Below are positions 18,059 to 45,737 of a stretch of 64,000 bases of DNA, in pieces (within the stretch, counting starts at the first letter, position 1; each line of letters opens with the position of its first letter). Where the stretch lies: the IMG/VR virus record IMGVR_UViG_3300031555_010338. The stretch is one strand, 5' to 3'. Origin of the DNA: a virus. Lineage: Duplodnaviria; Caudoviricetes. The position numbers were made by a program, and so were the translations under genes. The notes beneath the pieces are model-generated. The model was not told the origin of the DNA. It saw only the letters and a program-made list of their open reading frames with translations, and searched no databases.

Positions 18059-18125
18059 TAAACACCAAGAAGTTAGCTAAACAACTCGCATCGTGGGCGG
18101 TTGTGAATACAAACAGGAGGTAAAC

Positions 18126-25699: not shown

Positions 25700-26439
25700 A
25701 GAAGATAGCTGGTGTTTTAGCCTTACTCCTAATTTGGCAAGTAGGATCGACGATGACAACCCCATTGTTCGTTCCCTCTCCAATGTCAGTGCTTGAAGCA
25801 CTTGTAGGACTGGTTGAAACAGGACAGTTGCTTCCAGGGTTGGCTTACTCTTTCTCCAGAATCACTATCGCAGCACTACTTTCCATGTCCGTAGCCGTTC
25901 CTCTGGCTTTGTTGGTATGTGCATTCAAGCCAATCAAGGACATGGTTCACCCTGTCGTATCTGCTATGCGATACATTCCAGTTACCGCATTTTCTCCACT
26001 GCTTATTTTGTGGTTTGGAATCGATGAGACAATGAAGATCTCCTTCCTTTTTCTGGCGACCTTTGTTTATCTGCTTCCATCAACAATTATGTGTCTGGAA
26101 GATGTGCCGCAAGACCTAATTGATACCGGCAAGTCCATCGGAATGCGTTCTCACGAAATCATTTCGGAAATCCTACTTCCCGCAGCTCTACCGTCAATTA
26201 TGAACTCATTTCTCATGATGTATGGTATTGGCTGGACGTATGTAGCAGTGATTGAAGCTGTTAATGCTAAGTTTGGCCTGGGCTTCATTATCAATGTGGG
26301 AGCTGCGAGAGGGAAAACGGCTATCGTATTCGCCTCAATTCTGGTGATCGTCATTTTCAGCTATCTATTCGATTGCGTTGGAAAGAAACTGATCCGTCGA
26401 GCGTTTAGATGGAGGTATTTGAATGATAACCTTGAATGA
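25696..26439 (+). CDS. ABC transporter permease (NitT/TauT/SsuC-type)
   Basis: Multiple TMs; RYIPVTAFSPLLILWFG; EAA-like loop; ILLPAALP. Confidence 0.9.
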   Translation: MKKIAGVLALLLIWQVGSTMTTPLFVPSPMSVLEALVGLVETGQLLPGLAYSFSRITIAALLSMSVAVPLALLVCAFKPIKDMVHPVVSAMRYIPVTAFSPLLILWFGIDETMKISFLFLATFVYLLPSTIMCLEDVPQDLIDTGKSIGMRSHEIISEILLPAALPSIMNSFLMMYGIGWTYVAVIEAVNAKFGLGFIINVGAARGKTAIVFASILVIVIFSYLFDCVGKKLIRRAFRWRYLNDNLE

Positions 26440-27007
26440 TCTTGTGGTTGGGTACGATAAGCCACTTATGAAACCCATCAACTTCACATTTGAAGACGGC
26501 AAGATATACGGAATTTTGGGCAAGTCTGGTTGTGGCAAAAGCACACTGCTGAAAACAATCGCAAAGCTGCATAAGCCGATTTCCGGTAGTGTTAAGCGCG
26601 ATGGTAGTAAGCAAATCTACATGATGCACCAGCGATACACCAATTTTAATTGGCTGAATTGCTTGGATAATGTGCTGATTGCAGAACGCAACCGCCGTAA
26701 GCGCAAAGAGCTTATTCCAGTAGCAAAGACCATTTTGGAACAAGTTGGTCTTGGAGAATATCTTGACCGTTATCCCACCGAGCTTTCCGGTGGAATGCAG
26801 CAGAGATTGGCGTTAGCGCGTGTGTTATTCGTCAAGCCCTCTTGTCTGCTAATGGATGAACCATTATCAGCTCTGGATGATACGACAAGATCAAAAATGC
26901 AGAAGCTGATTATGGATATACACAAAGAAACCAACAGCACCATAATCATGGTCACACATAGCGAAGAAGAAGCAAAGAAAATGTGCGACCACATCTTGAA
27001 ACTTTAA
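26423..27007 (+). CDS. ABC transporter ATP-binding protein
   Basis: GKSGCGKS, LSGGMQQR, LLMDEP, VTH. Confidence 0.95.
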   Translation: MITLNDLVVGYDKPLMKPINFTFEDGKIYGILGKSGCGKSTLLKTIAKLHKPISGSVKRDGSKQIYMMHQRYTNFNWLNCLDNVLIAERNRRKRKELIPVAKTILEQVGLGEYLDRYPTELSGGMQQRLALARVLFVKPSCLLMDEPLSALDDTTRSKMQKLIMDIHKETNSTIIMVTHSEEEAKKMCDHILKL

Positions 27008-27023
27008 GGGAGGTTTTTACATT

Positions 27024-27557
27024 ATGAGTTGGTTGGAAAAGATTGGCCTCGTCGAGCGTGATGCGGCTGAAACCCCGCTGGCAGTTGAAGAGCTGCCTAC
27101 AGAATCCGAGATTCTGGTTGATGCGGAAATTGCGTCCACGGATAACATCGTGGATGAGATTTACGGTCAGAACGAGCTTTCTGACAAAAGCAATTCTATC
27201 TACACTGTCCAGGCATTGATTGCCACTCTCCCCGCCGAGATGACCACTGCTAAGAAGCAGGCCACCGTTGCCGGTATTCTCGCTGTGTCTGGCAAGACCA
27301 TCTCCGCACTGCTGGAAGATGCAGAAAAGCGTCTGGAAGTTCTGAGTGCAGCGCAAAACAAGATCGTTGCTGAGCGCACTGCCGAGATCGAGACTGCGAA
27401 TGCTGATATCGAAACGCTGAAAGGCGCTATTGAGGCTGCGAATATCAAGATTAAAGAGGGCGAGGATATTATCGCAGCAACAAAAAAGTCCGTAGAGGAC
27501 GAGGCAACCGTAATTTCTGATCTGGTTGAGTTCTGTAACGGAATGGAGGGCAAGTAA
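27024..27557 (+). CDS. Coiled-coil hypothetical protein
   Basis: GGGAGG RBS; heptad-rich C-terminal half. Confidence 0.8.
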   Translation: MSWLEKIGLVERDAAETPLAVEELPTESEILVDAEIASTDNIVDEIYGQNELSDKSNSIYTVQALIATLPAEMTTAKKQATVAGILAVSGKTISALLEDAEKRLEVLSAAQNKIVAERTAEIETANADIETLKGAIEAANIKIKEGEDIIAATKKSVEDEATVISDLVEFCNGMEGK

Positions 27558-28300
27558 TGAAGTTCGTTGTAGGTGCAATTATCGTAGTTGTTCTTCTGGC
27601 GCTCATCATTTTCCCCGAATTTCGTAAGAAGCTGAAAGTCCTGGTCGGCGGTTTTCTGAATGTCTTTGTCGAGGATGCTGCCAAGACTCCTGAGGGTGCA
27701 AACGCCGTTTTCAATCAGGCTATCGAAGAAATGCAGGACAAATACAACCGTGCCGCAAATACTCTGAATAAGCTGTCTGGTGAGCTGAAACATGCCGAAG
27801 CAGCGGTTGACAGCATTACCAAGGAGATCAAAGAGGTGGAGGCAACCTGCGAACGACTGGTAAAGGCTGGTCAGTTGAACGATGCCGAGGTTTATGCTTC
27901 CCGCCGTGCCGAGCTTATTACCGAGCTTGAGCAGAAGAAAGAGTGTATTGTTCGCCTGAAGCCTATGGTTGCGGATGCGACCCAGATCTATGACACTCTT
28001 GGCAAGAAGCTCCGTGAGCTGAAGCGCAACAAGAAGGAAACCGTTGAGAAGCTGAAGATGAACGGTCAGTTGAAGGATCTGCTGGGTGATCTGGATGAGC
28101 TGAAAAAGGATACCGCAACGGCCAAGATGCTGGATGCTGTCATGGATGGCTCTAAGGATCTCCAGAAAGAGGTCGATGGCGCTCGTGTTGTTCACGAGAA
28201 CCGCGCATCTACCAAGATTGCTCGTGCGGAGCAAAAGGCCGCTCAGTTGAAGAGCGACGAATACCTTGAATCTCTCAAGAAGAAGTACGGAGGAAAGTAA
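27557..28300 (+). CDS. PspA/IM30-like coiled-coil protein with N-terminal TM
   Basis: TM helix, TPEGANAVFNQAIEEM, long coiled coil, ends YLESLKKKY. Confidence 0.65.
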   Translation: MKFVVGAIIVVVLLALIIFPEFRKKLKVLVGGFLNVFVEDAAKTPEGANAVFNQAIEEMQDKYNRAANTLNKLSGELKHAEAAVDSITKEIKEVEATCERLVKAGQLNDAEVYASRRAELITELEQKKECIVRLKPMVADATQIYDTLGKKLRELKRNKKETVEKLKMNGQLKDLLGDLDELKKDTATAKMLDAVMDGSKDLQKEVDGARVVHENRASTKIARAEQKAAQLKSDEYLESLKKKYGGK

Positions 28301-28302
28301 AG

Positions 28303-29889
28303 ATGAAACTGAGACTTACTAAGGCCGGTCGTGCCGTCCTGTTCATTGCCATTATCGTTGTGTTGGGTGTGGGTGGCTTCTTTGGCTATCAGCATTTCGC
28401 CGGTGACGGCGCAAGCCTGATCGACCAGTTCCAGAGCGATAAGCTTCCCAGCAACGATACAAATGCTGGTGTTACCGACACCGCAAAGCCCAATAATAAC
28501 ACCGCTCAGAATATCGACACCAATGACACCACCATCAATCTGTCTCTGGACGAGTGGATTGGTTGGAAGCCCATTATTGATGCCAATCAGGGCTTGACTA
28601 CCCAGCCTGGTTCTATCTTTGATAAGCTTGGTCTGAAGGTCAATATCAATATTATCAACGATGCAGATGCTTCCAGCAATGCTCTGATTAAGGGTGATCT
28701 GAATGCAGCCGGCTATACGCTTAACCGTACCGCATTCCTTTCTGGTAAGTTCAGTGATGCCGGCCTGGATGTTGTGATGCCCGTGTTCACCAATTACTCT
28801 GATGGCGGCGATGGCATTATCGCTCTGAGCAAGTACAACACCATTGAGAGCCTTGTTGATGCCAAGATCGGTGTACCCAAGTTCAGTGAGGCACAGTCCC
28901 TTGTTATCTGGTTTGTGAATAAGTCCGATCTGCCCGATGCAGATAAGCAGAAGATTATCGACAATCTGATCCTGCTGGACGATGCTGAGCAGACCGGCCA
29001 GGCATTCTTCGCAGGCAGTCTGGACGTTGCTGCAACTTGGCAGCCCTACTTGTCCAACGCAGAGAATAGCACCAATTCCCACATTCTGTTCGATACCACT
29101 TCCTCTAACAAGCTGATTATGGACGGCATTTTGTTCCGCTCCGATTTTGCACAGGCACATCCCGACATGATTTCCGCCTTTATCGATGGCATTTTCCAGG
29201 CCGAGGATATGTACGAAACCGAGTTTAAGTATATCCGTAAGGTAATGCCTATGTTCGCTGACTCTTCTGATGAAGACATTCTGAGCATGTGCGGTGACGC
29301 TGGCCTGATGGGTTATACCGAGAATGTAAACGCTCTGGAAAACGACTGCCCCACCGTGTATGCAGACATGTGTGCAATCTGGGAGAGCATTGGCGAGACT
29401 GTTGACAGAACTCTTGGTGCAACTCTGTTTGACACCAGCTATGTAAAGACCCTTTCCAATAACTATTCTTCTCTGCCCCAGCAGTCTACCTTTGAGATTA
29501 CCGAAGAGCAGAAGGAAAGTATCAAGGATGTTGCTGCTCTTCTGACCAAGAGCGCCACCATCAACTTTATCCCCGATACTGCGAAGTTCCTGGATAATGC
29601 AGAGGCTGATGCTGTTCTGAGCGAGTTCGTTGAGATGGCTAAGACTCTGGATGGTACTATCATCCAGATCGAGGGCAATATCAACTCCAACAGCAACACC
29701 GAGGGCGGTATGAAGCTGTCCGAGGAACGCGCAAAGACCGTTAAGAACTACTTTGTGGCAAACGGCATTGATCCCAACCGCATTATCGTAGTCGGTAACG
29801 GCAATACAAAGATGGTCGCTGATCCCAATGGCCCCAATGCGGAGCAGAACCGAAGAACCGATATCTTCTTCAAGACGATTGAAAACTAA
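28303..29889 (+). CDS. NMT1/THI5-like substrate-binding protein fused to C-terminal OmpA-like peptidoglycan-binding domain
   Basis: N-terminal TM; WIGW, SDGGDGI, DVAATWQPY; C-terminal IEGN...LSEERAKTVKNY...NRRTDI. Confidence 0.85.
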   Translation: MKLRLTKAGRAVLFIAIIVVLGVGGFFGYQHFAGDGASLIDQFQSDKLPSNDTNAGVTDTAKPNNNTAQNIDTNDTTINLSLDEWIGWKPIIDANQGLTTQPGSIFDKLGLKVNINIINDADASSNALIKGDLNAAGYTLNRTAFLSGKFSDAGLDVVMPVFTNYSDGGDGIIALSKYNTIESLVDAKIGVPKFSEAQSLVIWFVNKSDLPDADKQKIIDNLILLDDAEQTGQAFFAGSLDVAATWQPYLSNAENSTNSHILFDTTSSNKLIMDGILFRSDFAQAHPDMISAFIDGIFQAEDMYETEFKYIRKVMPMFADSSDEDILSMCGDAGLMGYTENVNALENDCPTVYADMCAIWESIGETVDRTLGATLFDTSYVKTLSNNYSSLPQQSTFEITEEQKESIKDVAALLTKSATINFIPDTAKFLDNAEADAVLSEFVEMAKTLDGTIIQIEGNINSNSNTEGGMKLSEERAKTVKNYFVANGIDPNRIIVVGNGNTKMVADPNGPNAEQNRRTDIFFKTIEN

Positions 29890-29914: not shown

Positions 29915-29975
29915 ACGGCACTTACAGCAACTTTACTACACATAATTTGGGTTTATGATCGTGAAAATGTGCCGT
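29915..29975 (+). ncRNA. ACAGCAA-tagged RNA 1 carrying a Pro(TGG)-like anticodon stem-loop
   Basis: ACGGCAC/GTGCCGT closing stem, TTACAGCAA, inner CATAA-TTTGGGT-TTATG. Confidence 0.65.
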
Positions 29976-29996
29976 GTTGGAATACGAAATATAATA

Positions 29997-30053
29997 AAGG
30001 CGCTAACAGCAATGTTACAAAACATGGACTTGAAATCTATTCAAATGCGCCTT
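29997..30053 (+). ncRNA. ACAGCAA-tagged RNA 2 carrying a Ser(TGA)-like anticodon stem-loop
   Basis: AAGGCGC/GCGCCTT closing stem, TAACAGCAA, inner ATGGA-CTTGAAA-TCTAT. Confidence 0.65.
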
Positions 30054-30064
30054 GCAAAGAAAAT

Positions 30065-30157
30065 GGAGCAGTAAGCCTAACTGGTAAGATAGTCGCCTGC
30101 TAAGCGACGAGTAGCCGCGTAAGCGGTGTGCAGGTTCGAGTCCTGTCTGCTCCGCCA
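30065..30157 (+). tRNA. tRNA-Ser(GCT)
   Basis: GGAGCAG/CTGCTCC acceptor, GTCGC-CTGCTAA-GCGAC, long variable arm, GGTTCGAGTCC, encoded CCA. Confidence 0.9.
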
Positions 30158-30161
30158 TCAA

Positions 30162-30327
30162 GAGCAAGTAGGCAAAGAGAAAGCCTATTCATATCGACGA
30201 GCAATAACTGTAACACCTCCCTTTACTCACCATACATCCCCCTCCCTATCTCCTTTGTTCCCTGCTTCGTCGCATGAATACAAAATAGATTCGTCTATTG
30301 CATAGGAGCGTTGCCTATGCCTTGCTC
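30162..30327 (+). ncRNA. Structured ncRNA candidate with large C/U-rich loop
   Basis: Nested helices GAGCAAG/CTTGCTC, TAGGCAA/TTGCCTA, TATTCAT/ATGAATA, CGACGAGCA/TGCTTCGTCG enclosing an anti-SD-rich loop. Confidence 0.6.
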
Positions 30328-30340
30328 GATAAAAAAATCT

Positions 30341-30427
30341 GCTGGTGTGGTGGAATTGGCAGACACATCGGACTTAAGTTCCGATGCTCGTAAGGGCGTG
30401 TGGGTTCAAGTCCCACCGCCAGCACCA
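30341..30427 (+). tRNA. tRNA-Leu(TAA)
   Basis: GCTGGTG acceptor, TGGAATTGGCAGAC D-arm, TCGGA-CTTAAGT-TCCGA, variable arm, T-arm, CCA. Confidence 0.95.
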
Positions 30428-30432
30428 AACAC

Positions 30433-30546
30433 GGGAGCGTCTGGGCGGCAGCTTTTTACAGTGTATAGGACGGCGGACACTTACAGCAACTTTACAAAAA
30501 GAGTTATGGAAAAACTTAGCTTGCGGTTCGATTCCGCAGCTCCCCA
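30433..30546 (+). ncRNA. ACAGCAA-tagged RNA 3: degenerate tRNA-like with Ser(GGA)-like loop
   Basis: GGGAGC/GCTCCC acceptor, GACAC-TTACAGCAA tag, GAGTT-ATGGAAA-AACTT, T-arm TGCGG-TTCGATT-CCGCA. Confidence 0.6.
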
Positions 30547-30613
30547 AAGCCGTTAATTTTCTTCAAAGTCCGGTTAATTTTATTGGCAGTCGATGATAAG
30601 ACATAATAGACAT

Positions 30614-30729
30614 GCGGAAGTAGCTCAGTCGGTAGAGCAACAGTAAAAAAAATGTGTCGTGTATATGACGCACACAGCAATTTCAAATATGGGAACTGCG
30701 TGTCGGAGGTTCGAGTCCTCCCTTCCGCG
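30614..30729 (+). ncRNA. ACAGCAA-tagged RNA 4: tRNA with insertion in the anticodon loop (Pro-like TGG/GGG)
   Basis: GCGGAAG/CTTCCGC acceptor, canonical D- and T-arms, insert AATGTGTC..GACGCAC-ACAGCAA. Confidence 0.7.
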
Positions 30730-30736
30730 CGAATAT

Positions 30737-30853
30737 GCCAGGGTAGCTCAGTTGGATAGAGCGCGTAAATAACGCGACTTGTACAAGACGCTAACAGCAA
30801 TTTCTTTTGGTCTGTTAAACCCGTGGTCGTGGGTTCGAGTCCCACCCCTGGCG
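30737..30853 (+). ncRNA. ACAGCAA-tagged RNA 5: tRNA-Asn(GTT) with 43-nt insertion in the anticodon stem
   Basis: GCCAGGG/CCCTGGC acceptor, G73, GGT-CTGTTAA-ACC; insert 30766-30808 contains GACGC-TAACAGCAA. Confidence 0.75.
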
Positions 30854-30860
30854 CATTTAT

Positions 30861-30977
30861 ACGGTGGTCGTCAAGTGGTAAGACAGCGGCCATATAAAAT
30901 GTGACCGTAAGGCTCACTAACAGCAAAGTTATGAAGCCAAGCCGCCACCGCAGGTTCGATTCCTGCCCACCGTTCCA
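30861..30977 (+). ncRNA. ACAGCAA-tagged RNA 6: tRNA-Gly(GCC)-like with insertion in the anticodon loop
   Basis: ACGGTGG/CCACCGT acceptor, T73, CCA; GCGGC/GCCGC stem; insert AATGTGA..TCAC-TAACAGCAA before GCCAA. Confidence 0.75.
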
Positions 30978-31202
30978 CGGGGATAAGCTGACTTCGCCAT
31001 TCAAACAGCCCCTTATTAAACTGGTAGAAATGGCCTCTGGTACAGCAGAAGTAAAGAGGTATAGCCGGCGATGAGTCGTAGTAACCGGCGAGGTTAAGAG
31101 CTGACGCATGGGAACTGTAACTCCCTGGGCATCGTGAAAAGTCATCCACGGCCACACGGATGGTACGATGTACCGCTCCTGCATAGGTGCGCATATGCAA
31201 AT

Positions 31203-31287
31203 CGAGACACTTACAGCAACATTAAAGGTTAAAGTAGTTGGTAGCATTGCCGATGCGAGAAGGTTCAAGTCCTTCACTCGTGTCTCG
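31203..31287 (+). ncRNA. ACAGCAA-tagged RNA 7: terminal tag stem enclosing a D-loop/T-arm module
   Basis: CGAGACAC/GTGTCTCG, TTACAGCAA, AGTTGGTAG, GAAGG-TTCAAGT-CCTTC. Confidence 0.65.
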
Positions 31288-31299
31288 TAAACCTCCTTT

Positions 31300-31405
31300 A
31301 AGACACCTGCAGCAAATAACAATGGGAGTCGTTTTAATTGGTAAAGACGGCTGGATACCAGTCATGCGGGTTCGAGTCCCGTCTTCTATTAAAATGGCGT
31401 GTCTT
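31300..31405 (+). ncRNA. Tagged RNA 8: terminal tag stem enclosing a cloverleaf with minimised anticodon loop
   Basis: AAGACAC/GTGTCTT, variant tag CTGCAGCAA; AATGGGAG/CTTCTATT, D-loop TAATTGGTA, GGCTGG-ATA-CCAGTC, GCGGG-TTCGAGT-CCCGT. Confidence 0.65.
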
Positions 31406-31462
31406 GGGGAATCGCGTTTCTTTTATTGGAATTAGCAAAACAATTTAAGGAGGAACTAAGAA

Positions 31463-32980
31463 ATGAGCAATTTTATGTCTGCGGTCAAGAACACTCTGAA
31501 CAATGAGTGTAACTACTCCATGACGGAGAATGGTGCGCTGGGCTATCGCACCACCGGCAAGGAGCTGTTGGATCTCAACTTTGCGGTTGCTTCTCTGCGC
31601 CGCGCAACTCCCAGCGAAATCGCAAACCGATTTACAAAGGCTTTCTTTGAGGACAAGATCGTTGCGATGAAGTGGCTGTTCTTCGCCCGTGATGTTCGTG
31701 GTGGCCTGGGTGAGCGCCGCCTGTTCAGAACCATCCTGTCTAATATGGCTCACACAAACCCCGAATACATCGTACCTCTGCTGGAACTCGTTCCTGAGTA
31801 TGGCCGCTACGATGATCTGTGGTGTCTGCTCGATACCGAGCTGCAGAAGGATGTTCTGGATGTGATTTCCAAGCAGCTTACCGAAGACATCCAGAACTTG
31901 AAGGAAGGCAAGGGTATTTCCCTGCTGGCAAAATGGCTTCCTTCTCCCAATGCTTCTTCTAAGACTACCAAGCGGTATGCCAAGAAGATTTACAAGCACA
32001 TGGGCGTTTCTGAGCGAGACTACCGCAAGGCAATCTCTCGTCTGCGTACCAAGCTGGATGTCGTCGAGAAGAAGATGTCCGCTAAGCATTGGGGTGATAT
32101 CGCATATGAGGCTGTCCCCTCTCGTGCCAACCTGATCTACAACTCCGCTTTCCTTCGTAACGACGAAGAGCGCCGCCGTAACTTCCTCTCCAAGCTGGAA
32201 AAGGGCGAAGCAAAGATCAACGCATCCACCCTGTTCCCTCACGACATTGTACATCAGTATGGCCGAAAGAGTAGTGCTGATGCTACTTTGGAAGCTCTGT
32301 GGAAGGCTCTGCCTGACACCGTTCAGGGCTGCGGCAACACTATTGTTGTGGCAGACGGTAGTGGTAGCATGAGCGTCCGCGTTGGTGGAACTGATGTTTC
32401 TGCTCTGGAAGTTGCTAATGCACTGGCAATTTACTTTGCCGAGCGTTCTTCCGGTCAGTTCAAGGATAACTACATTACCTTCTCTGAGCGTCCTAAGCTC
32501 GTCAATCTGAGCAATGGAAAGAACCTGCGTGAGAAGATCCAGATCGCTCGTCGCCATAGCGAGGTAGCAAACACCAATATCGAAGCTGTCTTCGATCTGA
32601 TTTTGACTACCGCAAAGCGCGAGAATATGGCGCAGGAGGATATTCCTCAGAACATCCTTATCATCTCTGACATGGAGTTTGATGGCTGCGCGGTTTGCAC
32701 TACGAACCGTCGTCCTGATGCCCGTCTGTTCCAGGTGATTGCCAAGCGTTACGAAGACGCTGGCTATAAGCTGCCCCGCCTGGTGTTCTGGAATGTGAAT
32801 AGCAGAAGTGCTACCATTCCCGTTATCGAAAACGACATGGGTGTTGCGCTGGTAAGCGGCTTCAGCACCAATATCGTCAAGATGGTCATGAGCGGCAAGA
32901 CCGATCCCTATGAGTGCTTGCTGGAAACTCTGAACACCGAGCGTTATGCACCGATTGGTGAGGCTCTGAAGAGTCTGTAA
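31463..32980 (+). CDS. DUF2828-family protein (helical repeats plus C-terminal vWA; putatively TROVE/Ro60-like)
   Basis: TENGA, ARDVRGGLGER, YGRYDDL, AKWLPS, VPSRA, LFPHDIV; MIDAS DGSGSM, ISDMEFD, FWNV, VSGFS. Confidence 0.88.
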   Translation: MSNFMSAVKNTLNNECNYSMTENGALGYRTTGKELLDLNFAVASLRRATPSEIANRFTKAFFEDKIVAMKWLFFARDVRGGLGERRLFRTILSNMAHTNPEYIVPLLELVPEYGRYDDLWCLLDTELQKDVLDVISKQLTEDIQNLKEGKGISLLAKWLPSPNASSKTTKRYAKKIYKHMGVSERDYRKAISRLRTKLDVVEKKMSAKHWGDIAYEAVPSRANLIYNSAFLRNDEERRRNFLSKLEKGEAKINASTLFPHDIVHQYGRKSSADATLEALWKALPDTVQGCGNTIVVADGSGSMSVRVGGTDVSALEVANALAIYFAERSSGQFKDNYITFSERPKLVNLSNGKNLREKIQIARRHSEVANTNIEAVFDLILTTAKRENMAQEDIPQNILIISDMEFDGCAVCTTNRRPDARLFQVIAKRYEDAGYKLPRLVFWNVNSRSATIPVIENDMGVALVSGFSTNIVKMVMSGKTDPYECLLETLNTERYAPIGEALKSL

Positions 32981-32987
32981 TCGCAAT

Positions 32988-33018
32988 GGGGCGGCGGATA
33001 GTTACCGCCGCCTCTTTT
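32988..33018 (+). terminator. Rho-independent terminator
   Basis: GGGGCGGCGG/CCGCCGCCTC stem plus TTTT. Confidence 0.75.
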
Positions 33019-33039
33019 CACATATTAGGAGGAAACCAC

Positions 33040-33321
33040 ATGGATCTCGTAACGAAGTACATCATGACTCATTCCACCGGAAGCAAACGTCCGATTAGCG
33101 GAGCAGAAATTGCAAGAGCGTTTTGTATATCTGGCGTTGCAGTAAGGCGGCTTATCAATGCTGCCAGAACCAATGGCGATCCTATTTGCTCAAATGGCAA
33201 GGGTTATTATATTGCCAAGGACAAAGAAGAACTTCGCCGTACCATTGAATCCATGCAAGGCAGAATTAACATGATGAGTGATGCTGTCGCTGGTATGGAA
33301 AAGTGTCTGCGAGGTGCGTAA
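33040..33321 (+). CDS. Winged-helix HTH protein
   Basis: AGGAGG RBS; PISGAEIA...VRRLINAAR..GDPICS..KGYY. Confidence 0.75.
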   Translation: MDLVTKYIMTHSTGSKRPISGAEIARAFCISGVAVRRLINAARTNGDPICSNGKGYYIAKDKEELRRTIESMQGRINMMSDAVAGMEKCLRGA

Positions 33322-35564: not shown

Positions 35565-36761
35565 ATGGTAAAGCAGATCAAAGTTGTTATCGGAGCCAAT
35601 TTTGGCGATGAGGGCAAAGGTCTTATGACCGATTATTTCTGCCACGAGCTTTCACAAACTGGTAGCGTTCTGAACATTCGTCATAACGGCGGCGCACAAG
35701 CTGGTCATACCGTGGTATTACCAGACGGCAAGCGTCATGTGTTCAGTCACTTTGGGTCTGGGAGCTTCGTACCCCATGTCGCTACTTATCTTTCTCAGGA
35801 TTTTATTCTCAACCCTATGCTCTTCTGTCGTGAACTGGAGCGTCTGAAAAACAAGTTCGGCCTAATGCCAAGAGTATTCATCAACCCATATTGTAGGCTT
35901 ACAACCCCATACGACATGCTTATCAACCAGATCGCAGAGCGTAGTCGTGGTGATGCACGGCACGGTAGCTGCGGTTTAGGTATCAATGAAACTGTCGTTC
36001 GCAATGAGCGCATTCGGACGGATATCGGTCTGTTTGCATCTAAACCAGCATTGATGAATCATCTGGTAGCAACGCTGGTTTATCTGCGTAAGGAATATGT
36101 TCCAAGCCGTTTGAAGCAGCTTGGCGTAGATAACATTTCTATCGAGGACATGAAGCTAATTGAAAGCGATATCGTCCTTGAAAACTGGATGATGCAACTG
36201 ACAGAAATGCTCAACTATTGCACCATTGCCGGCGATGAAATCCTTGATAATTACGACGGACTTGTGTTCGAGGGAGCGCAGGGGCTTCTTCTGGACAACG
36301 ACTGTAAAGCGTTTGCTCCGCACCTTACCACATCTAAGACGGGATCTTTTAACCCTAAAAATATTCTTGCTCGTATGTCCATGCAGGATCGGGATATTGA
36401 GTTCTGCTATGTGACCCGCTCCTACTTCACACGGCATGGAGCTGGCAAGTTCCCTTCTGAGTGTGAGAAAAGCATTATTCTTCCTGAGGATGTTGTTGAT
36501 AAGACCAATCATTTCAACGAGTTTCAGAGAGAATTCCGCTATGGATACTTTGATGAGTATTTGTTCGAGAATGCCACTGAGAAAGATCTTCTGTATCGGC
36601 ACTGCGATTTCTCAAAGGCCAAATATACCAGAGCAGTTACCCATTTGGACGAAACGGATGGTAAGCTGATCGGCCACGATGGAAAGGAACTCTCCTTCCC
36701 GTCTGGCACACGATACCGCAGCTACGGAGAGACACGAAACGATGTCCATTGTCTGCGCTAA
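35565..36761 (+). CDS. Adenylosuccinate synthetase-like (PurA family) protein
   Basis: GANFGDEGKG, GGAQAGHTV, HGSCGLGI, FEGAQGLLLD, TRHGAG. Confidence 0.88.
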   Translation: MVKQIKVVIGANFGDEGKGLMTDYFCHELSQTGSVLNIRHNGGAQAGHTVVLPDGKRHVFSHFGSGSFVPHVATYLSQDFILNPMLFCRELERLKNKFGLMPRVFINPYCRLTTPYDMLINQIAERSRGDARHGSCGLGINETVVRNERIRTDIGLFASKPALMNHLVATLVYLRKEYVPSRLKQLGVDNISIEDMKLIESDIVLENWMMQLTEMLNYCTIAGDEILDNYDGLVFEGAQGLLLDNDCKAFAPHLTTSKTGSFNPKNILARMSMQDRDIEFCYVTRSYFTRHGAGKFPSECEKSIILPEDVVDKTNHFNEFQREFRYGYFDEYLFENATEKDLLYRHCDFSKAKYTRAVTHLDETDGKLIGHDGKELSFPSGTRYRSYGETRNDVHCLR

Positions 36762-42123: not shown

Positions 42124-43530
42124 GTGAAGACATTGTATTCTGCATTTGTTACCAGAATTAAAAACCTGAGAAAACATACGAATGCAGATCGTCTGATGTG
42201 TGGCGAGTGTTTTGGCAATACGGTTATCGTTGGCCTGGACACTCAGCCAGACGAGCTTGGTGTTTACTTCCCCGTAGACGGCAAGCTTGGTTTGGAGTTT
42301 GCGCAGAAGAATGATCTGCTCCGCCGCAAGGATGAAAATGGCAAACCTGCTGGCGGTTATCTCGATCCTGAGAAGAGAAACATTAAGGCTCTGAAGCTCC
42401 GTGGAGAAAAGAGCGACGGCCTGTTTATGCCTCTTGTTTGTCTGGCAGATTACACCGATATTGCCAGTTTGAAAGAGGGTGACACCATTACAGTGTTGAA
42501 TGGTGTAACGATTTGTGAGAAATATATCCCCCGCGCAAGTAGTAGGGGGGGGTGTCATTTTGATGGTAATCGCACTCGCAAGCGCAAAGATCCTGTGTCT
42601 CCCCTGTTCATGGAACATGCAGACACGGAACAGCTTGCCTACAATCTTACATCCTTCCGTGCTGGCGACCAAATCGAGGTCACTTTGAAGATGCACGGCA
42701 CTTCTCAGAGAACCGGCTATCTTCCCGTTCTGAGTGGATATAAGCGCACCATTATGGATAAGCTGCGCAAGCGTTCTGGCACACCGATTTATGATTGGGG
42801 CTATGTCTCCGGTACTCGTCGTGTAGTTCTGGACGATTATGAAGGCGGCTACTATGGGAGCAACGCCTTCCGTGAGCAGCACAGCAAGATCTTTGAAGGC
42901 AAACTTCATAAGGGCGAGACGGTATATTATGAGGTTGTTGGTTTTACTCAGGACGGTACGCCTATCATGGCTTCTTGTGATAACAAGAAAGTAGGCGATA
43001 AGGAATTTACTAAACAATACGGAGATGTTACGACATTCTCTTATGGCTGCAAGCCTGGACATTTGGGCGGACTTATCAAAGATAAGGAAATTGTGGATAA
43101 CGAAGCTGTTGTGTATCCGCAGTCTGACATCTATGTGTACCGTATGACCATGACCAATGAGGACGGCGATGTAGTTGAGTACACGCCCGATTTTATGCGT
43201 TACCGTTGTGAGCAGATGGGCGTTAAGTGTGTTCCCGTATTTTACAAGGGCTACATTCCCGAATACTTCATCCTGCCCGATGATGTTGGAAGTCCCGCCG
43301 CAATCGATGCTGGTGCATATGTAAAGAAGCTGGCTGAGGATTTCTACGACGGCGCTGATCCTGTTGGTAAATCCCATATCCGTGAGGGTGTTGTAGTTCG
43401 GATCATCAACCGTCCTAAGTTCACCGCTTACAAGCATAAGAACTTTGCGTTTAAGGTGCTGGAGGGCATTATCAAGGATGTTGCTACCGCACCTGACATG
43501 GAAGAGGCTCAGGAACAGGAGGCTGCATAA
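42124..43530 (+). CDS. ATP-dependent RNA ligase (Rnl2/DRB0094-like) with N-terminal OB-like domain
   Basis: H.NADRL and KLRGEKSDG N-domain; motif I KMHGTS, III YYEVVG, IV EGVVV, V YKHKN. True start may be TTG 42133. Confidence 0.85.
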   Translation: MKTLYSAFVTRIKNLRKHTNADRLMCGECFGNTVIVGLDTQPDELGVYFPVDGKLGLEFAQKNDLLRRKDENGKPAGGYLDPEKRNIKALKLRGEKSDGLFMPLVCLADYTDIASLKEGDTITVLNGVTICEKYIPRASSRGGCHFDGNRTRKRKDPVSPLFMEHADTEQLAYNLTSFRAGDQIEVTLKMHGTSQRTGYLPVLSGYKRTIMDKLRKRSGTPIYDWGYVSGTRRVVLDDYEGGYYGSNAFREQHSKIFEGKLHKGETVYYEVVGFTQDGTPIMASCDNKKVGDKEFTKQYGDVTTFSYGCKPGHLGGLIKDKEIVDNEAVVYPQSDIYVYRMTMTNEDGDVVEYTPDFMRYRCEQMGVKCVPVFYKGYIPEYFILPDDVGSPAAIDAGAYVKKLAEDFYDGADPVGKSHIREGVVVRIINRPKFTAYKHKNFAFKVLEGIIKDVATAPDMEEAQEQEAA

Positions 43531-43694
43531 TGGGACTTCCGCAAATCATTTTTGTTGGGCTTTATGCTCTGTCGCTTGGTTGCATTCTGGCTAAGCACGG
43601 CGAAGCAAGAACGGGGAAGTATAATTTCTTCACTTCTCTGTTTACTGTCTCCTTAGAGATGATGCTGCTTTGGTGGGGCGGCTTCTTTGGATAA
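43530..43694 (+). CDS. Small membrane protein (54 aa)
   Basis: Below the ORF-track cutoff; AGGAGG RBS, TAATG coupling; ends LLWWGGFFG. Confidence 0.65.
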   Translation: MGLPQIIFVGLYALSLGCILAKHGEARTGKYNFFTSLFTVSLEMMLLWWGGFFG

Positions 43695-44001
43695 ACAAAC
43701 CATCATCGACTTCATCCGCCACTTCAAAGATGCGCAAAAGACATTTCTTGACGGGTGCTGCTACTGGTTCTGCTATATTTTGAGCGCCAGATTTGGAGGC
43801 TCAACATTTTATGAGCCAGTTGAAGGACACTTTGTACAAAAAATTGGCGATTCGTTCTTTGATGTGCGCGGTGATGTCACTGAACTGTATAAGGACTGTC
43901 GGTATATGGTGTGTTGGGATACATACAAGCTTGTAGACCCAACACATTACCGGCATGTTGTAAGAGACTGTGTATTGAAAGAGAGGTATGAAGATGATTG
44001 A
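43687..44001 (+). CDS. Hypothetical protein (GCCYWF...GHF...FDVRG)
   Basis: Cys-His-Asp pattern reminiscent of a papain-like triad. Confidence 0.65.
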   Translation: MDKQTIIDFIRHFKDAQKTFLDGCCYWFCYILSARFGGSTFYEPVEGHFVQKIGDSFFDVRGDVTELYKDCRYMVCWDTYKLVDPTHYRHVVRDCVLKERYEDD

Positions 44002-44806
44002 TGCACTTGAGCGTGACCAGAAAATCATGCGTCGGCTTGCTGAACATCTTGATTCGGTGAAGGATAAACATCCAGAATGGGTCGGTATCTTTCTCCAAGG
44101 CTCTCAGAATTACAACCTGGACTATGAGGGGAGCGACATTGATTCAAAGCTGATTGTCCTCCCCTCTTTCGAGGATTTTGTACTTAACAGAAAGCCTTAT
44201 AGCTACACGCACATCATGGAAAACGATGAGCATGTGGATGTAAAGGATATTCGCTTGATGTTTGAGTGCTTCCGTAAGCAAAATATCAACTTTGTTGAGA
44301 TCCTTTTTACAAAGTATCGCATTATGAACCCTAAATACGAGGTGTTGTTCAAGCCCGTTTTGGATGCTCGTGAACTCGTTGGACGATACAACAACTATGC
44401 CGCTATGAACTGTATGGTTGGTGCGGCGATGGAGAAGCGCAAGGCTTTGTGCCATCCTTATCCCGCCACTATGGAGAAGATCGAAAAGTTTGGCTACGAT
44501 CCGAAGCAACTTCATCATATCCTGCGCTTTGATGAATTTAATGAGCGTTGGCTTGCCGGTGTTCTGTATGAACACTGCTTGATTTCTGAGCAGCGTGACT
44601 ATTTTCGATCTGTAAAGTTTGGTTGTCACACTTTAGAAGAAGCAATCGAAATTGCAGACGAAACGATTGAGCGTATGAAACGACGTAAAGACGAGTACAT
44701 GGCTGCTACCCCCCCCATTATCAATCGTGATGTGGAGCAAATCTTGAACTCAGCTCTTATCGAGCTGTTCAAATACAATTTTCAGTGTGAGATTGGAGGT
44801 GTGTAA
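43988..44806 (+). CDS. DNA polymerase beta-superfamily nucleotidyltransferase
   Basis: QGSQNY.LD..GSDID signature; YDPKQLHHILR. Confidence 0.8.
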   Translation: MKMIDALERDQKIMRRLAEHLDSVKDKHPEWVGIFLQGSQNYNLDYEGSDIDSKLIVLPSFEDFVLNRKPYSYTHIMENDEHVDVKDIRLMFECFRKQNINFVEILFTKYRIMNPKYEVLFKPVLDARELVGRYNNYAAMNCMVGAAMEKRKALCHPYPATMEKIEKFGYDPKQLHHILRFDEFNERWLAGVLYEHCLISEQRDYFRSVKFGCHTLEEAIEIADETIERMKRRKDEYMAATPPIINRDVEQILNSALIELFKYNFQCEIGGV

Positions 44807-44807
44807 C

Positions 44808-45737
44808 ATGGAAAATAAGCAACCTATCTTTTTCATGCTTGTTGGTCTTCCGTACAGTGGAAAATCTGTCCAGGCCGAAAAGCTGAAAGAACAGTATGGA
44901 GCTGTTATCCATTCCAGTGATGCCATCAGAGCGGAAGTCCTTGGCGATGTTCAGGATCAGAATAATAATGGAAAAGTGTTTGAAGTTCTTCACCGCCGCG
45001 TCTTTGATGATCTGTCTGCCGGCAAGAATGTCGTGTACGATGCTACCAACATCAGTTATAAGCGCCGCATGGATGCTTTGCAGCGTATCAACAAAATCGA
45101 TTGTCAGAAGGTCTGCCTTTTCATGGCAACTCCCTTTGATGTCTGTATTGAGCGCAGCAAGAACCGTGAGCGCGTTGTTCCTTATGAGGTTGTCGAGCGC
45201 ATGTATAAAACGATCTGGATTCCCAATGTGTATGAGGGTTGGGATCATGTTGAGTTGATTTATCCCGAAGGTTTTAAGCCTTACAATCTTCGTGACCTGT
45301 TCAACGGAGAGAATGGTTTGAACTACATCAATCAGGACAATCCTCATCACGCTCTGACTGTCGGACATCATTGCATTACTGCATATGGCCTTGTCCACAA
45401 CGAGTCTCCTGAATTGCAGGAAGCAGCTCTTCTGCATGATATCGGTAAGCCTTTTACGAAGTCTTTCGTAAATAGCAAGGGTGAAACTACTGAGGTTGCC
45501 CATTATTACGACCATCATCATGTTTCCGCATATGACAGTTTGTTTTATGGTGATTTCAGTCTGGATCGTCTTTACATCGCCGCTATCATCCAGTGGCATA
45601 TGAGGCCGTTTGAACTTGAGCGTCTTGGTGACTCCAGACGTGCAAAAGAAAAGTTCAGAGATCTTGTTGGATATAAGCTGTACCGCGACATTGAGCGTCT
45701 GCATGTGGCAGATATCGAAGCGAAAGGCTTGAAGTAA
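44808..45737 (+). CDS. Polynucleotide kinase (P-loop) fused to HD phosphohydrolase (RNA end-healing)
   Basis: GLPYSGKS, SSDAIR, DATN; NPHH...LLHDIGK, HM, AD. Confidence 0.85.
   Translation: MENKQPIFFMLVGLPYSGKSVQAEKLKEQYGAVIHSSDAIRAEVLGDVQDQNNNGKVFEVLHRRVFDDLSAGKNVVYDATNISYKRRMDALQRINKIDCQKVCLFMATPFDVCIERSKNRERVVPYEVVERMYKTIWIPNVYEGWDHVELIYPEGFKPYNLRDLFNGENGLNYINQDNPHHALTVGHHCITAYGLVHNESPELQEAALLHDIGKPFTKSFVNSKGETTEVAHYYDHHHVSAYDSLFYGDFSLDRLYIAAIIQWHMRPFELERLGDSRRAKEKFRDLVGYKLYRDIERLHVADIEAKGLK

What the first reader, a model, noticed from the sequence alone, without database searches (positions are those of the whole stretch)
29915..32980. Candidate new RNP system: eight tRNA-like RNAs sharing a stem+ACAGCAA tag directly upstream of a DUF2828 (putative Ro60/TROVE-like) gene
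Seen: eight RNAs in 1.5 kb (29915, 29997, 30433, 30614, 30737, 30861, 31203, 31300) share a helix ending in CAC/CGC followed by NNACAGCAA (one CTGCAGCAA variant). The partner strand GTG/GCG is often preceded by AAT. Stems differ in sequence but keep pairing (ACGGCAC/GTGCCGT, AAGGCGC/GCGCCTT, CGAGACAC/GTGTCTCG, AAGACAC/GTGTCTT). The tag occurs in two circularly permuted forms: closing the RNA ends (1, 2, 7, 8) or as a hairpin inserted into a tRNA (3-6). Every cargo is tRNA-derived. The array ends about 60 nt before the DUF2828 gene. Established: Ro60 (helical ring plus vWA) binds Y RNAs through a conserved stem; bacterial YrlA RNAs pair that stem with a tRNA-mimic module and are often encoded near RNA-repair genes. 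Inference: the tag is a protein-binding handle for DUF2828, which would display tRNA or anticodon mimics, for example as decoys or repair substrates against host anticodon nucleases.
Basis: partly seen in the sequence, partly recalled or inferred. Interest (0 to 1): 0.95.

Follow-up and report, generated by a model that had tools for sequence, protein, structure and literature searches.

The report
Phage Ro60-like protein with handle RNAs
A 144-kb gut phage encodes a ring protein predicted to fold like the RNA-surveillance protein Ro60, preceded by eight small RNAs that share one "handle" (a 7-bp stem plus ACAGCAA) joined to tRNA bodies or anticodon arms; the same pairing recurs in very different phages and probably forms an undescribed Y-RNA-like particle.

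Summary
Eight co-oriented RNAs at 29915-31407 carry a covarying 7-bp helix followed by NN-ACAGCAA. Four have the helix closing the RNA ends. In three it is a hairpin that replaces a tRNA anticodon loop. In one it sits in the D-arm region.

The gene at 31463-32980 (Pfam DUF2828 + DUF7788) gives a confident model (pLDDT 93.6). That model aligns over its whole length with Ro60 (Z 20, 423 residues) and has an invariant MIDAS motif. It does not match Pfam TROVE.

The handle travels with this gene:
- Listeria phage A511, a Felix-O1-like coliphage, a Bacillus phage and a mycobacteriophage all carry it.
- A covariance model hit 10 of 10 gene-positive genomes, always beside the gene, and 0 of 4 gene-negative records.
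- All 70 hits in 80 bacterial or MAG loci lie within 2 kb of the gene.

No Rfam family matches. The handle equals the published Dictyostelium Class I RNA motif. A 2025 paper on Listeria phage CKA15 speculated that abundant RNAs beside the orthologous gene are Y RNAs.

Binding and function are inferred, not shown. This scan has reported the same system before on many other genomes.

The parts
29915..29977 (+). RNA 1, closing-type handle RNA. Helix 29915-29921 with 29969-29975, tag 29924-29930. The cargo is an anticodon-arm-like hairpin with loop UUUGGGU (UGG).
   Evidence: Model R1 scores 53.3 bits, E 2e-10. Loop analysis.
29997..30055 (+). RNA 2, closing-type handle RNA. Helix 29997-30003 with 30047-30053, tag 30006-30012. 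The cargo hairpin has loop CUUGAAA (UGA).
   Evidence: R1 scores 48.7 bits. Orthologues keep the loop while the stem changes.
30065..30157 (+). Canonical tRNA-Ser(gct) inside the array.
   Evidence: ARAGORN. Rfam tRNA 42.5 bits.
30341..30427 (+). Canonical tRNA-Leu(taa) inside the array.
   Evidence: ARAGORN. Rfam tRNA 56.6 bits.
30433..30545 (+). RNA 3, a tRNA-like RNA with acceptor stem, T arm and an anticodon arm with loop AUGGAAA (GGA). The handle replaces the D-arm region: short helix 30461-30464 with 30477-30480, conserved GGCGG loop, tag 30483-30489.
   Evidence: In 12 orthologues the anticodon stem covaries and the anticodons are GGA, GCA or UGA.
30614..30729 (+). t4, a tRNA body whose anticodon loop is replaced by a 50-nt module. 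Handle hairpin 30654-30671 (7 bp, GUAU loop), tag 30674-30680.
   Evidence: Rfam tRNA 49.8 bits with a 50-nt insert. Hairpin. Stems covary.
30737..30853 (+). t5, a tRNA body with the handle module in the anticodon-loop position. Hairpin 30774-30791, tag 30794-30800, followed by a covarying 3-bp mini-arm with loop CUGUUAA (GUU).
   Evidence: Rfam tRNA 45.2 bits. Alignment A3. Hairpin.
30861..30974 (+). t6, a tRNA body with the handle module in the anticodon-loop position. Hairpin 30901-30917 (GUAA loop), tag 30920-30926. GCCAA is conserved before the 3' anticodon-stem strand. The RNA ends in an encoded N-CCA.
   Evidence: Rfam tRNA 44.8 bits. Alignment A4 and pair counts.
30975..31202 (+). Unexplained 228-nt spacer. 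It holds a 5-bp hairpin (31034-31059) around a degenerate tag, ACAGCAG.
   Evidence: No Rfam hit. Fold z-score -0.12.
31204..31288 (+). RNA 7, closing-type handle RNA. Helix 31204-31210 with 31280-31286, tag 31213-31219. The cargo has a D-loop-like stretch and a T arm (loop UUCAAGU).
   Evidence: R1 scores 33.8 bits, E 1e-5.
31300..31407 (+). RNA 8, closing-type handle RNA. Helix 31300-31306 with 31399-31405, tag variant GCAGCAA at 31309-31315. The cargo has a D-arm-like stretch, a short hairpin and a T arm. It ends 56-58 nt before the start codon.
   Evidence: R1 scores 22.7 bits, E 0.006.
31463..32980 (+). Ro60-like ring protein (505 aa; DUF2828 + DUF7788/vWA; MIDAS residues D298, S300, S302, T371, D403).
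   Evidence: Pfam and PHROG 850. Invariant columns. Model pLDDT 93.6. Ro60 is the top fold match, Z 20.0.
32986..33321 (+). Small HTH_11 protein directly downstream. Possible regulator, conserved only in close relatives.
   Evidence: Pfam E 3.3e-5. tblastn finds it in 13 of 107 loci.
42124..45737 (+). Context: RNA-repair cassette. RNA ligase 42124-43530, nucleotidyltransferase 43988-44806, polynucleotide-kinase-like 44787-45737.
   Evidence: PHROG 968 (3e-63), 388 and 505/6931. Weak PF09414 hit.

Best explanation
The gene encodes a divergent Ro60-type ring protein: an alpha-helical ring closed by a vWA/MIDAS domain. The eight RNAs upstream, plus five more in the phage's main tRNA array, are most likely its Y-RNA-like partners.

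The shared handle is a 7-bp helix of free sequence, flanked 3' by NN-ACAGCAA and 5' by an A-rich stretch. I infer that it is the protein-binding site, playing the role that the conserved terminal helix of Y RNAs plays for Ro60. The variable part of each RNA is a tRNA module: an anticodon arm alone, a tRNA body whose anticodon loop is replaced by the handle, or a T/D 'elbow'. The particle would therefore present tRNA look-alikes.

The RNAs sit in tRNA operons a few nucleotides from real tRNAs, so they are probably cut out by the tRNA-processing enzymes. The last RNA ends about 57 nt before the start codon with no terminator between, so the gene is probably co-transcribed with the array.

Most likely role (inferred, about 35-40%): the particles act in the phage-host contest over tRNA. 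They could be protein-protected decoys for tRNA-directed nucleases. Alternatively they could be adaptors that bring tRNA-binding enzymes, or broken tRNAs, to the ring for repair or disposal, working with the phage's RNA ligase/kinase cassette.

Shown here: the fold, the RNA family, the covariation and the genomic linkage. Inferred: binding, processing and function.
For: Protein:
- AlphaFold model with pLDDT 93.6 and pTM 0.92.
- The 13 best Foldseek hits are all Ro60 or Rsr, including phage phiLo Ro60, at E 2e-8 to 6e-5.
- VIA-align gives Z 20.0, rmsd 3.9 A, 423 aligned residues, model 13-481 against Ro60 10-537. The best non-Ro hits cover the vWA domain only, at Z 11.5.
- A sequence profile finds Ro60 as the best PDB hit, weakly (E 0.014).
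- The MIDAS residues are invariant in 65 homologues.

RNA:
- The 7-bp helix is 99.4% paired, and all 7 pairs show changes on both sides. Unbiased site tests agree.
- tRNA-body stems are 99.1% paired, and all 5 anticodon-stem pairs covary.
- 21 of 41 closing-type cargos hold a Y-U-NNN-R-N 7-nt loop hairpin, against 6.0 +/- 2.3 after shuffling.

Linkage:
- Handles lie next to the gene in 22 of 23 IMG/VR relatives, upstream or downstream.
- The same holds in Listeria A511, coliphage SP22, Bacillus phage Chewbecca and mycobacteriophage JoeDirt.
- A protein-blind pattern scan gave 12 hits with a 7/7 helix, of which 9 records carry the gene (the other 3 are fragments). Of 14 hits with 6 or fewer helix pairs, none of the 13 records that could be searched has the gene.
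- Model R1 finds 2-7 hits, all beside the gene, in 10 of 10 gene-positive genomes and none in 4 gene-negative records.
- R1 gives 70 hits in 80 loci chosen by protein alone. 68 are on the gene's strand, and all are within 2 kb upstream or 0.4 kb downstream.

Modularity: JoeDirt RNA 2 joins a YrlA-type permuted tRNA module (Rfam 39.8 bits) to an ACAGCAA-type handle instead of the CGAA stem.

Context: 29 tRNAs, a tmRNA, RNA ligase and PNK in this phage.

Literature: in the A511 sister phage CKA15, the three most transcribed non-coding regions lie within 2 kb upstream of the orthologue, and the protein is found in virions (PMC12282133).
Against: - There is no direct evidence of binding or of expression in this phage.
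- Pfam TROVE does not match. Only vWA_Ro60 matches, below its cut-off. Identity to Ro60 is 12-17%.
- The handle motif is unrelated to the known Ro60-binding motif (GNCGAAN0-1G / CGAA).
- Five of this genome's 13 handle RNAs lie about 47 kb from the gene.
- One Dictyostelium Class I RNA, which carries the same motif, is reported to bind an RRM protein directly. Another reader of the motif is therefore possible.
- One relative (L023) shows no handle within 4 kb.
- In CKA15 the most abundant RNA is the ROOL-like RNA. It is not shown to be a handle RNA.
Confidence: 0.7

Rival explanations
1. The handle is read by something other than DUF2828, such as a host tRNA-processing or tRNA-modifying enzyme, an RRM/La-type protein or another phage protein. 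The gene sits beside the RNAs only because both belong to the phage's tRNA operon.
For: The RNAs are packed among tRNAs, 4-11 nt from them. Five lie 47 kb from the gene. Class I RNA with the same motif binds the RRM protein Rnp1A/CIBP.
Against: The linkage holds where there is no tRNA array, as in JoeDirt. It holds in many bacterial loci with a single RNA just before the gene. It survives rearrangement from upstream to downstream of the gene. In whole genomes of 75-314 kb the model hits only beside the gene.
Confidence: 0.12
2. The handle module is an excisable, intron-like insert. RNAs t4-t6 would then be split or interrupted tRNAs that mature into working tRNAs, with the ring protein as a cofactor of that maturation.
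For: The insert lies exactly within a covarying anticodon stem. t6 orthologues keep CNU ... GCCAA around the insert and an encoded CCA end.
Against: Predicted 'intron' positions and anticodons are inconsistent within and between orthologues: 31/32, 32/33, 33/34, and aaa, tta and others. No group I intron or other ribozyme is found in Rfam. Half of all handles close stand-alone RNAs with nothing to splice. The protein has no nuclease or ligase domain.
Confidence: 0.06
3. The elements are mainly cis-regulatory: processing or stability signals, or an operator through which the protein controls its own mRNA. They would not be trans-acting partner RNAs.
For: A handle RNA nearly always ends 30-100 nt before the start codon. 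Some relatives have a minimal 37-nt handle hairpin there (L001 3910-3946; L011 3933-3968). No terminator lies between the array and the gene.
Against: Up to 8 copies per locus carry conserved, covarying tRNA-like cargos. Copies occur downstream of the gene and in distant tRNA arrays.
Confidence: 0.05
4. The elements are a selfish repeat (a miniature mobile element) that targets tRNA genes.
For: There are many copies, some inside tRNA genes.
Against: Only 7 nt are conserved. The helix differs in every copy yet stays paired. Orthologous copies are kept at syntenic places across phages with 50-75% protein identity.
Confidence: 0.02

Closest known systems
Ro60/Rsr with Y RNAs: bacterial YrlA/YrlB and Yrn1, mycobacteriophage ET08 YrlA (Chen et al. 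2014, PMC4201824; Rfam RF02553), and Thermus phage phiLo Ro60 with Yrl1/Yrl2 (PMC12135203)
   Same: The protein is a ring of helical repeats plus a vWA/MIDAS domain (Z 20 to Ro60). The partner-RNA genes lie next to the protein gene. A terminal stem with a conserved motif on its 5' strand is joined to a tRNA-like module. One DUF2828-linked RNA (JoeDirt RNA 2) even has the YrlA-type permuted tRNA module.
   Different: The protein family differs: Pfam DUF2828/DUF7788, with no TROVE hit. The motif differs: NN-ACAGCAA after a 7-bp helix rather than GNCGAAN0-1G/CGAA in a bulged stem. There are many more RNAs per genome (13 here). There are two topologies, including a handle grafted into the anticodon loop of an otherwise normal tRNA body. 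Some cargos are bare anticodon arms. No handle RNA reaches the Rfam YrlA threshold.
Class I RNAs of Dictyostelium and other dictyostelids (Aspegren 2004; Avesson 2011; Kjellin 2021, PMC7919456; search pattern in PMC5054030)
   Same: The design is the same. A short covarying stem joins the 5' and 3' ends. It is followed on the 5' strand by C-UU-ACAGCAA; the published pattern is GTTGRCCTTACAGCAA ... GTCAACTG. Then come a variable middle and G(U) after the 3' strand. Length is about 60 nt and the genes are clustered in many copies. RNAs 1, 3 and 7 of the window carry C-UU-ACAGCAA letter for letter.
   Different: Class I RNAs are eukaryotic, have their own DUSE promoter, and were reported as unique to Dictyostelia. 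Their stem is 6 bp. No tRNA-like cargo is described. The known direct binder is an RRM protein (Rnp1A/CIBP). Whether Dictyostelium has a DUF2828 protein could not be checked here.
Listeria phage CKA15 (P100-like, sister of A511): CKA15_055 and abundant non-coding transcripts (mSystems 2025, PMC12282133)
   Same: CKA15_055 belongs to the same protein family as A511 gp57, which has 37% identity to the window protein. It lies downstream of the tRNA region. The authors found an HHpred match to Deinococcus Rsr and suggested that the highly transcribed non-coding regions within 2 kb upstream may be Y RNAs. The protein was detected in purified virions.
   Different: The paper defines no RNA motif, structure or family, and tests no binding. 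Its most abundant region (26,236-26,727) coincides with a ROOL-like RNA in A511, not with the three handle RNAs at A511 25,286-25,555.
Phage answers to anticodon nucleases: T4 Rnl1 + Pnkp repair of PrrC-cut tRNA-Lys, and phage tRNA arrays that replace cleaved host tRNAs (established knowledge, from memory)
   Same: The phage is tRNA-rich (29 tRNAs) and has an RNA ligase and a polynucleotide-kinase-like gene. The RNAs display anticodon loops.
   Different: No ring protein or handle RNA is part of those systems. The link made here is inference only.

Membership tests
Pfam DUF2828 (PF11443) + DUF7788 (PF25043) proteins; PHROG 850 | Profile match above the curated cut-off. | tested here: met
   DUF7788 at 155.6 bits (cut-off 27.1). 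DUF2828 at 119.7 bits (cut-off 29). PHROG 850 at E 1.8e-141.
Ro60 / TROVE family (protein) | Sequence match to the TROVE domain (Pfam PF05731). | tested here: not met
   No TROVE hit at E <= 0.01. Only vWA_Ro60 at 16.6 bits, below its cut-off of 27.7. The profile against PDB sequences gives Ro60 at E 0.014, over the vWA part only.
Ro60 / TROVE family (protein) | Closed ring of helical repeats capped by a vWA domain. | tested here: met
   Model pLDDT 93.6. Ro60 entries 2i91, 1yvr and 1yvp give Z 19.8-20.0, rmsd 3.9 A, 414-423 aligned residues spanning model 13-481. Phage phiLo Ro60 gives Z 14.8-15.7 and Rsr gives Z 12.4.
Ro60 / TROVE family (protein) | MIDAS motif (DxSxS ... T ... D) in the vWA domain. 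| tested here: met
   D298, S300, S302, T371 and D403 are invariant in 65 homologues.
Ro60 / TROVE family (protein) | Binds Y RNA on the ring surface and threads single-stranded RNA ends through the hole. | not testable with these tools
   Needs biochemistry or a solved structure.
YrlA / Y RNA (Rfam RF02553) | Covariance-model score at or above the gathering score of 69 bits. | tested here: not met
   In the window there are only 27.9 and 18.8 bits, on spans that bridge neighbouring tRNA-like genes. JoeDirt RNA 2 scores 39.8 bits.
YrlA / Y RNA (Rfam RF02553) | Conserved Ro-binding motif GNCGAAN0-1G (CGAA) in the terminal stem. | tested here: not met
   The invariant motif is CAGCAA after a 7-bp helix. 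In the YrlA alignment of JoeDirt RNA 2 the terminal stem does not pair.
YrlA / Y RNA (Rfam RF02553) | Terminal stem from the 5' and 3' ends, plus a tRNA-like module, encoded beside the ring-protein gene. | tested here: met
   RNAs 1, 2, 7 and 8 have the closing helix. tRNA-like modules are present. Adjacency to the gene is shown.
Dictyostelid Class I RNA | Short covarying stem joining the 5' and 3' ends. | tested here: met
   The stem is 7 bp here against 6 bp published.
Dictyostelid Class I RNA | 11-nt motif CCUUACAGCAA next to the 5' strand of the stem. | tested here: met
   The published pattern is GTTGRCCTTACAGCAA. RNAs 1, 3 and 7 have CAC-TT-ACAGCAA.
Dictyostelid Class I RNA | DUSE promoter about 60 nt upstream, in a eukaryotic host. 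| tested here: not met
   These are phage tRNA-operon genes, so they are not members of the dictyostelid gene family as it is defined.
Dictyostelid Class I RNA | Score with the authors' Class I covariance model. | not tested
   The model is not available here.
Canonical tRNA (RF00005) | Cloverleaf with a 7-nt anticodon loop. | tested here: not met
   t4-t6 pass the Rfam tRNA threshold (44.8-49.8 bits), but 50-56 nt stand in place of the anticodon loop. ARAGORN without introns does not call them.
Intron-containing tRNA (group I or bulge-helix-bulge) | A consistent splice position that restores a 7-nt anticodon loop, or a recognisable intron ribozyme. | tested here: not met
   Positions and anticodons are inconsistent. 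Rfam finds no intron family.

The most novel reading that the evidence does not exclude
The phage and bacterial handle RNAs and the Dictyostelium Class I RNAs are one ancient RNA family. Its general partner is the DUF2828 ring protein. This would be a second Ro60/Y-RNA-like particle lineage running from phages, giant viruses and bacteria into eukaryotes. In phages it would present tRNA mimics in the fight over tRNA. It would also give the 20-year-old Class I RNAs a protein partner and a testable function.
Probability: 0.3. Interest if true: 0.9.

Novelty: new variant of a known kind. Interest (0 to 1): 0.8.

Why it matters
Ro60 with Y RNAs is a classic RNA-surveillance particle, studied in autoimmunity and in bacterial stress. 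A second, sequence-unrelated lineage would be a large blind spot in phage RNA biology. It has its own RNA handle and is present in hundreds of phages, including laboratory and therapeutic ones such as Felix O1 types, Listeria A511/P100 types, Herelleviridae, KVP40-like Vibrio phages and mycobacteriophages.

The handle acts as a portable tag fused to anticodon arms or whole tRNA bodies. This points to a new way for phages to counter tRNA-directed defences or to manage their own tRNA pools. The system can be tested directly in tractable phages.

The letter-for-letter match with Dictyostelium Class I RNAs offers a concrete hypothesis for an unexplained eukaryotic RNA class.

For annotation, about 115-nt 'tRNAs with inserts' and 60-nt intergenic hairpins next to DUF2828 genes can now be named.

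Tried and rejected
- Rfam, at gathering and at permissive thresholds, finds nothing for the handle RNAs apart from tRNA hits on t4-t6 and artefactual YrlA hits that span adjacent genes.
- I rejected the intron reading. ARAGORN with introns allowed gives inconsistent splice sites and anticodons.
- The displayed anticodon arms are not copies of the phage's own tRNA arms. Only the loops agree.
- The sigma-70 promoter and terminator scan gives nothing above chance. The one 'terminator' is the T arm of RNA 8.
- The 228-nt spacer 30975-31202 has no significant fold.
- RtcB and the CCA-adding enzyme are absent from the genome.
- The downstream HTH gene is not a conserved partner. It is found in 13 of 107 loci.
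- The PDB sequence search with the single protein finds nothing.
- A literature search for 'DUF2828' returns only plant and tardigrade mentions.
- The protein atlas gave no information on eukaryotic relatives.
- The CKA15 supplement has no TSS table, so its abundant RNAs could not be mapped onto the handle RNAs.
- Model R1 misses long-cargo handle RNAs. Several Lachnospiraceae loci without a model hit do carry a single handle RNA before the gene. The figure of 33 of 80 loci with a hit is therefore a lower bound.

Full report
WHAT IS THERE

The window is part of a 143.8-kb IMG/VR virus record. Between an OmpA-domain gene that ends at 29889 and a 505-aa gene at 31463-32980 lie 1.55 kb without ORFs of note. 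ARAGORN finds two ordinary tRNAs there: Ser(gct) at 30065-30157 and Leu(taa) at 30341-30427. Rfam's tRNA model also passes its threshold at 30614-30729, 30737-30853 and 30861-30974, but each of these has 50-56 nt in place of the anticodon loop.

Eight matches in 1.4 kb compare with about 0.05 expected from the shuffles.

THE HANDLE

In RNAs 1, 2, 7 and 8 a 7-nt strand ending in C is followed by two free nucleotides, then ACAGCAA (GCAGCAA in RNA 8), then a cargo of 34-83 nt. The perfect complement of the 7-nt strand comes next, followed by G.
- Of the 45 CAGCAA sites on the + strand of the window, only these four have a perfect Watson-Crick partner within 200 nt. Shifting the register gives 0-1.
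- In t4, t5 and t6 the same 7-position helix is a local hairpin with a 4-nt loop. It is preceded by an A-rich stretch and followed by NN-ACAGCAA.
- Across the window and 23 related loci there are 88 distinct tags. Of these, 43 have a 7/7 closing partner. Of the other 45, 11 have a 7/7 ungapped upstream hairpin, against 1 of 180 register-shifted controls.
- In an alignment of 24 closing-type RNAs from ten phages, the helix is 99.4% paired and all seven pairs change on both sides. The members were chosen for pairing, so searches are the unbiased tests.

The two circularly permuted topologies are therefore real. RNA 3 is the odd one: a 4-bp helix around a conserved GGCGG loop, placed in the D-arm region.

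THE CARGOS

- RNAs 1 and 2 carry a 5-bp stem with a 7-nt loop of anticodon-loop form: UUUGGGU and CUUGAAA. Orthologues keep the loop while the stem changes.
- Of 41 distinct closing-type RNAs, 21 have such a Y-U-NNN-R-N hairpin, against 6.0 +/- 2.3 after shuffling. A few of these are T loops.
- RNA 3 has an acceptor stem, a T arm and a covarying anticodon arm that shows GGA, GCA or UGA in 12 phages.
- In t4-t6 and their orthologues the acceptor, anticodon and T stems are 99.1% paired, and all five anticodon-stem pairs covary. The handle module therefore replaces the anticodon loop of an otherwise intact tRNA body.
- t5 keeps a covarying 3-bp mini-arm with loop CUGUUAA or CUUUUAA.
- RNAs 7 and 8 carry T arms and D-like stretches.
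- Reading the inserts as introns fails, because splice sites and anticodons are inconsistent.

THE PROTEIN

- It matches Pfam DUF2828 and DUF7788 and PHROG 850 ('RNA-binding protein'), but not TROVE.
- With 64 homologues the AlphaFold model reaches pLDDT 93.6 and pTM 0.92.
- The best 13 Foldseek matches are all Ro60 or Rsr, including the Ro60 of Thermus phage phiLo.
- VIA-align gives Z 20.0, rmsd 3.9 A and 423 aligned residues from one end of the protein to the other. Unrelated vWA proteins reach only Z 11.5 on 166 residues.
- The MIDAS residues are invariant.

By fold it is a Ro60-type ring. By sequence it is a separate family.

LINKAGE

- Handles cluster beside the gene in 22 of 23 viral relatives down to 47-50% identity. 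They lie upstream in most, and downstream in L018 and L021.
- The gene occurs in 710 isolate phage records. In four that I opened, from hosts of three phyla, handle RNAs with different helices but the same tag lie next to it:
  - A511: three, just upstream of gp57.
  - SP22 (Felix-O1 type): four, in the tRNA array just downstream.
  - Chewbecca: three or four.
  - JoeDirt: three, just downstream of its 'Ro-like RNA binding protein'.
- A scan of 2.9 million viral contigs with a protein-blind pattern gave 27 hits. Of the 12 with a 7/7 helix, 9 lie in records that carry the gene, and the other three are fragments estimated 9-53% complete. Of the 14 with 6 or fewer helix pairs, none of the 13 records that could be searched has the gene.
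- A covariance model of the closing-type handle (R1) finds only RNAs 1, 2, 7 and 8 in the window. It finds 2-7 hits, all beside the gene, in ten gene-positive genomes of 65-314 kb, three of which are unrelated to the training set. It finds none in four gene-negative records.
- In 80 bacterial or MAG loci picked by the protein alone, all 70 hits lie within 2 kb upstream or 0.4 kb downstream of the gene, and 68 are on its strand.
- Loci without a model hit often carry one long-cargo handle RNA just before the gene.

GENOME CONTEXT

The phage has 29 tRNAs, a tmRNA and five further handle RNAs inside its main tRNA array, 4-8 nt from neighbouring tRNAs. It also has an RNA ligase, a nucleotidyltransferase and a polynucleotide-kinase-like gene 9-13 kb downstream of the ring-protein gene. 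RtcB and the CCA-adding enzyme are absent.

COMPARISON WITH WHAT IS KNOWN

1. Ro60 with Y RNAs. The protein fold is the same, the RNA genes sit beside the protein gene, and a terminal stem is joined to a tRNA-like module (Chen 2014; phiLo). The protein family and the RNA motif differ, and no handle RNA reaches the Rfam YrlA threshold. JoeDirt RNA 2 is telling: its T arm, closed acceptor and D arm match YrlA well, but the YrlA terminal stem with CGAA is replaced by the ACAGCAA-type handle. The tRNA module is shared while the handle changes with the protein family. That is what a protein-specific binding site predicts.

2. Dictyostelium Class I RNAs. The published search pattern, GTTGRCCTTACAGCAA ... 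GTCAACTG, and the published description (a 6-bp covarying terminal stem, an 11-nt motif on the 5' side, about 60 nt) fit RNAs 1 and 2 almost letter for letter. Those RNAs were reported as unique to dictyostelids, and their function is unknown. I checked the motif in the papers myself.

3. Listeria phage CKA15 (mSystems 2025). The orthologue matched Deinococcus Rsr by HHpred, was found in purified virions, and lies within 2 kb downstream of the three most transcribed non-coding regions. The authors proposed Y RNAs as one explanation. Their most abundant region coincides with a ROOL-like RNA that I see in A511. The handle RNAs themselves are not described there.

VERDICT

Most likely this is a Ro60-like ring protein with a family of Y-RNA-like partner RNAs, whose handle is a 7-bp helix plus ACAGCAA and whose cargos are tRNA mimics (confidence about 0.7). 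Binding, processing and the biological role are inferred. The role could be decoy, repair platform or enzyme tether in the contest over tRNA.

It is a new variant of a known kind of particle. It is widespread and, as far as the searched literature and Rfam show, undescribed as an RNA family. The same system has already been reported by this scan on many other genomes.

Noticed in passing
window 35565-36761: PurZ-like adenylosuccinate synthetase (PHROG 1211, '2-aminooxy adenylosuccinate synthetase'; Pfam PF00709, E 1.3e-40). The phage may replace adenine by 2-aminoadenine (a Z genome).
   Followed up: no
window 42124-45737: RNA-repair cassette: RNA ligase (PHROG 968, 3e-63), a nucleotidyltransferase and a polynucleotide-kinase-like protein. 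No RtcB or CCA-adding enzyme is found in the genome.
   Followed up: partly
G000:C1 about 47.1-47.5 kb, - strand (L027 2499-2919): Phage-encoded tmRNA (Rfam RF00023, 97.8 bits). It lies inside a 27-tRNA array that also holds five handle RNAs (G000:C1 42806-42873, 44541-44645, 46067-46133, 46832-46942, 46954-47009).
   Followed up: partly
L032 3507-4058 (Listeria phage A511, record 26196-26747): ROOL-like RNA (RF03087, 87.5 bits, below the gathering score of 99.1, E 2e-16) between the tRNA array and gp57. Its position coincides with the most transcribed region of sister phage CKA15 (26,236-26,727), which was first annotated there as CDSs CKA15_059/060 (PMC12282133).
   Followed up: partly
window 30975-31202: 228-nt spacer with no ORF, no Rfam hit and no significant fold. 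It contains a 5-bp hairpin (31034-31059) around ACAGCAG, possibly a decayed ninth handle.
   Followed up: partly
window 30158-30340: 183-nt gap between tRNA-Ser and tRNA-Leu. Nothing was recognised in it.
   Followed up: no
window 32986-33321: Small HTH_11 protein 6 nt after the ring-protein gene. It is conserved only in close relatives (13 of 107 loci). The CKA15 paper also notes a predicted transcriptional regulator just downstream of its orthologue.
   Followed up: partly
window 25696-29889: Cell-type genes in a phage: an ABC-transporter permease-like gene (BPD_transp_1), a PspA/IM30-like gene and a 528-aa protein with an OmpA C-terminal domain. All have PHROG families.
   Followed up: no
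L001 3910-3946; L011 3933-3968; L015 3937-3970: Minimal handle hairpins (cargo 11-14 nt, about 37 nt in all) that end 30-55 nt before the ring-protein start codon in relatives. They may be an autoregulatory operator in the 5' UTR.
   Followed up: partly
window 18093-21176: 1027-aa helicase with an N-terminal methyltransferase/DarB-like region (PHROG 24008, 10089), a likely anti-restriction protein.
   Followed up: no
window 36840-37916: SPASM-domain (radical-SAM-type) protein just downstream of the PurZ-like gene.
   Followed up: no
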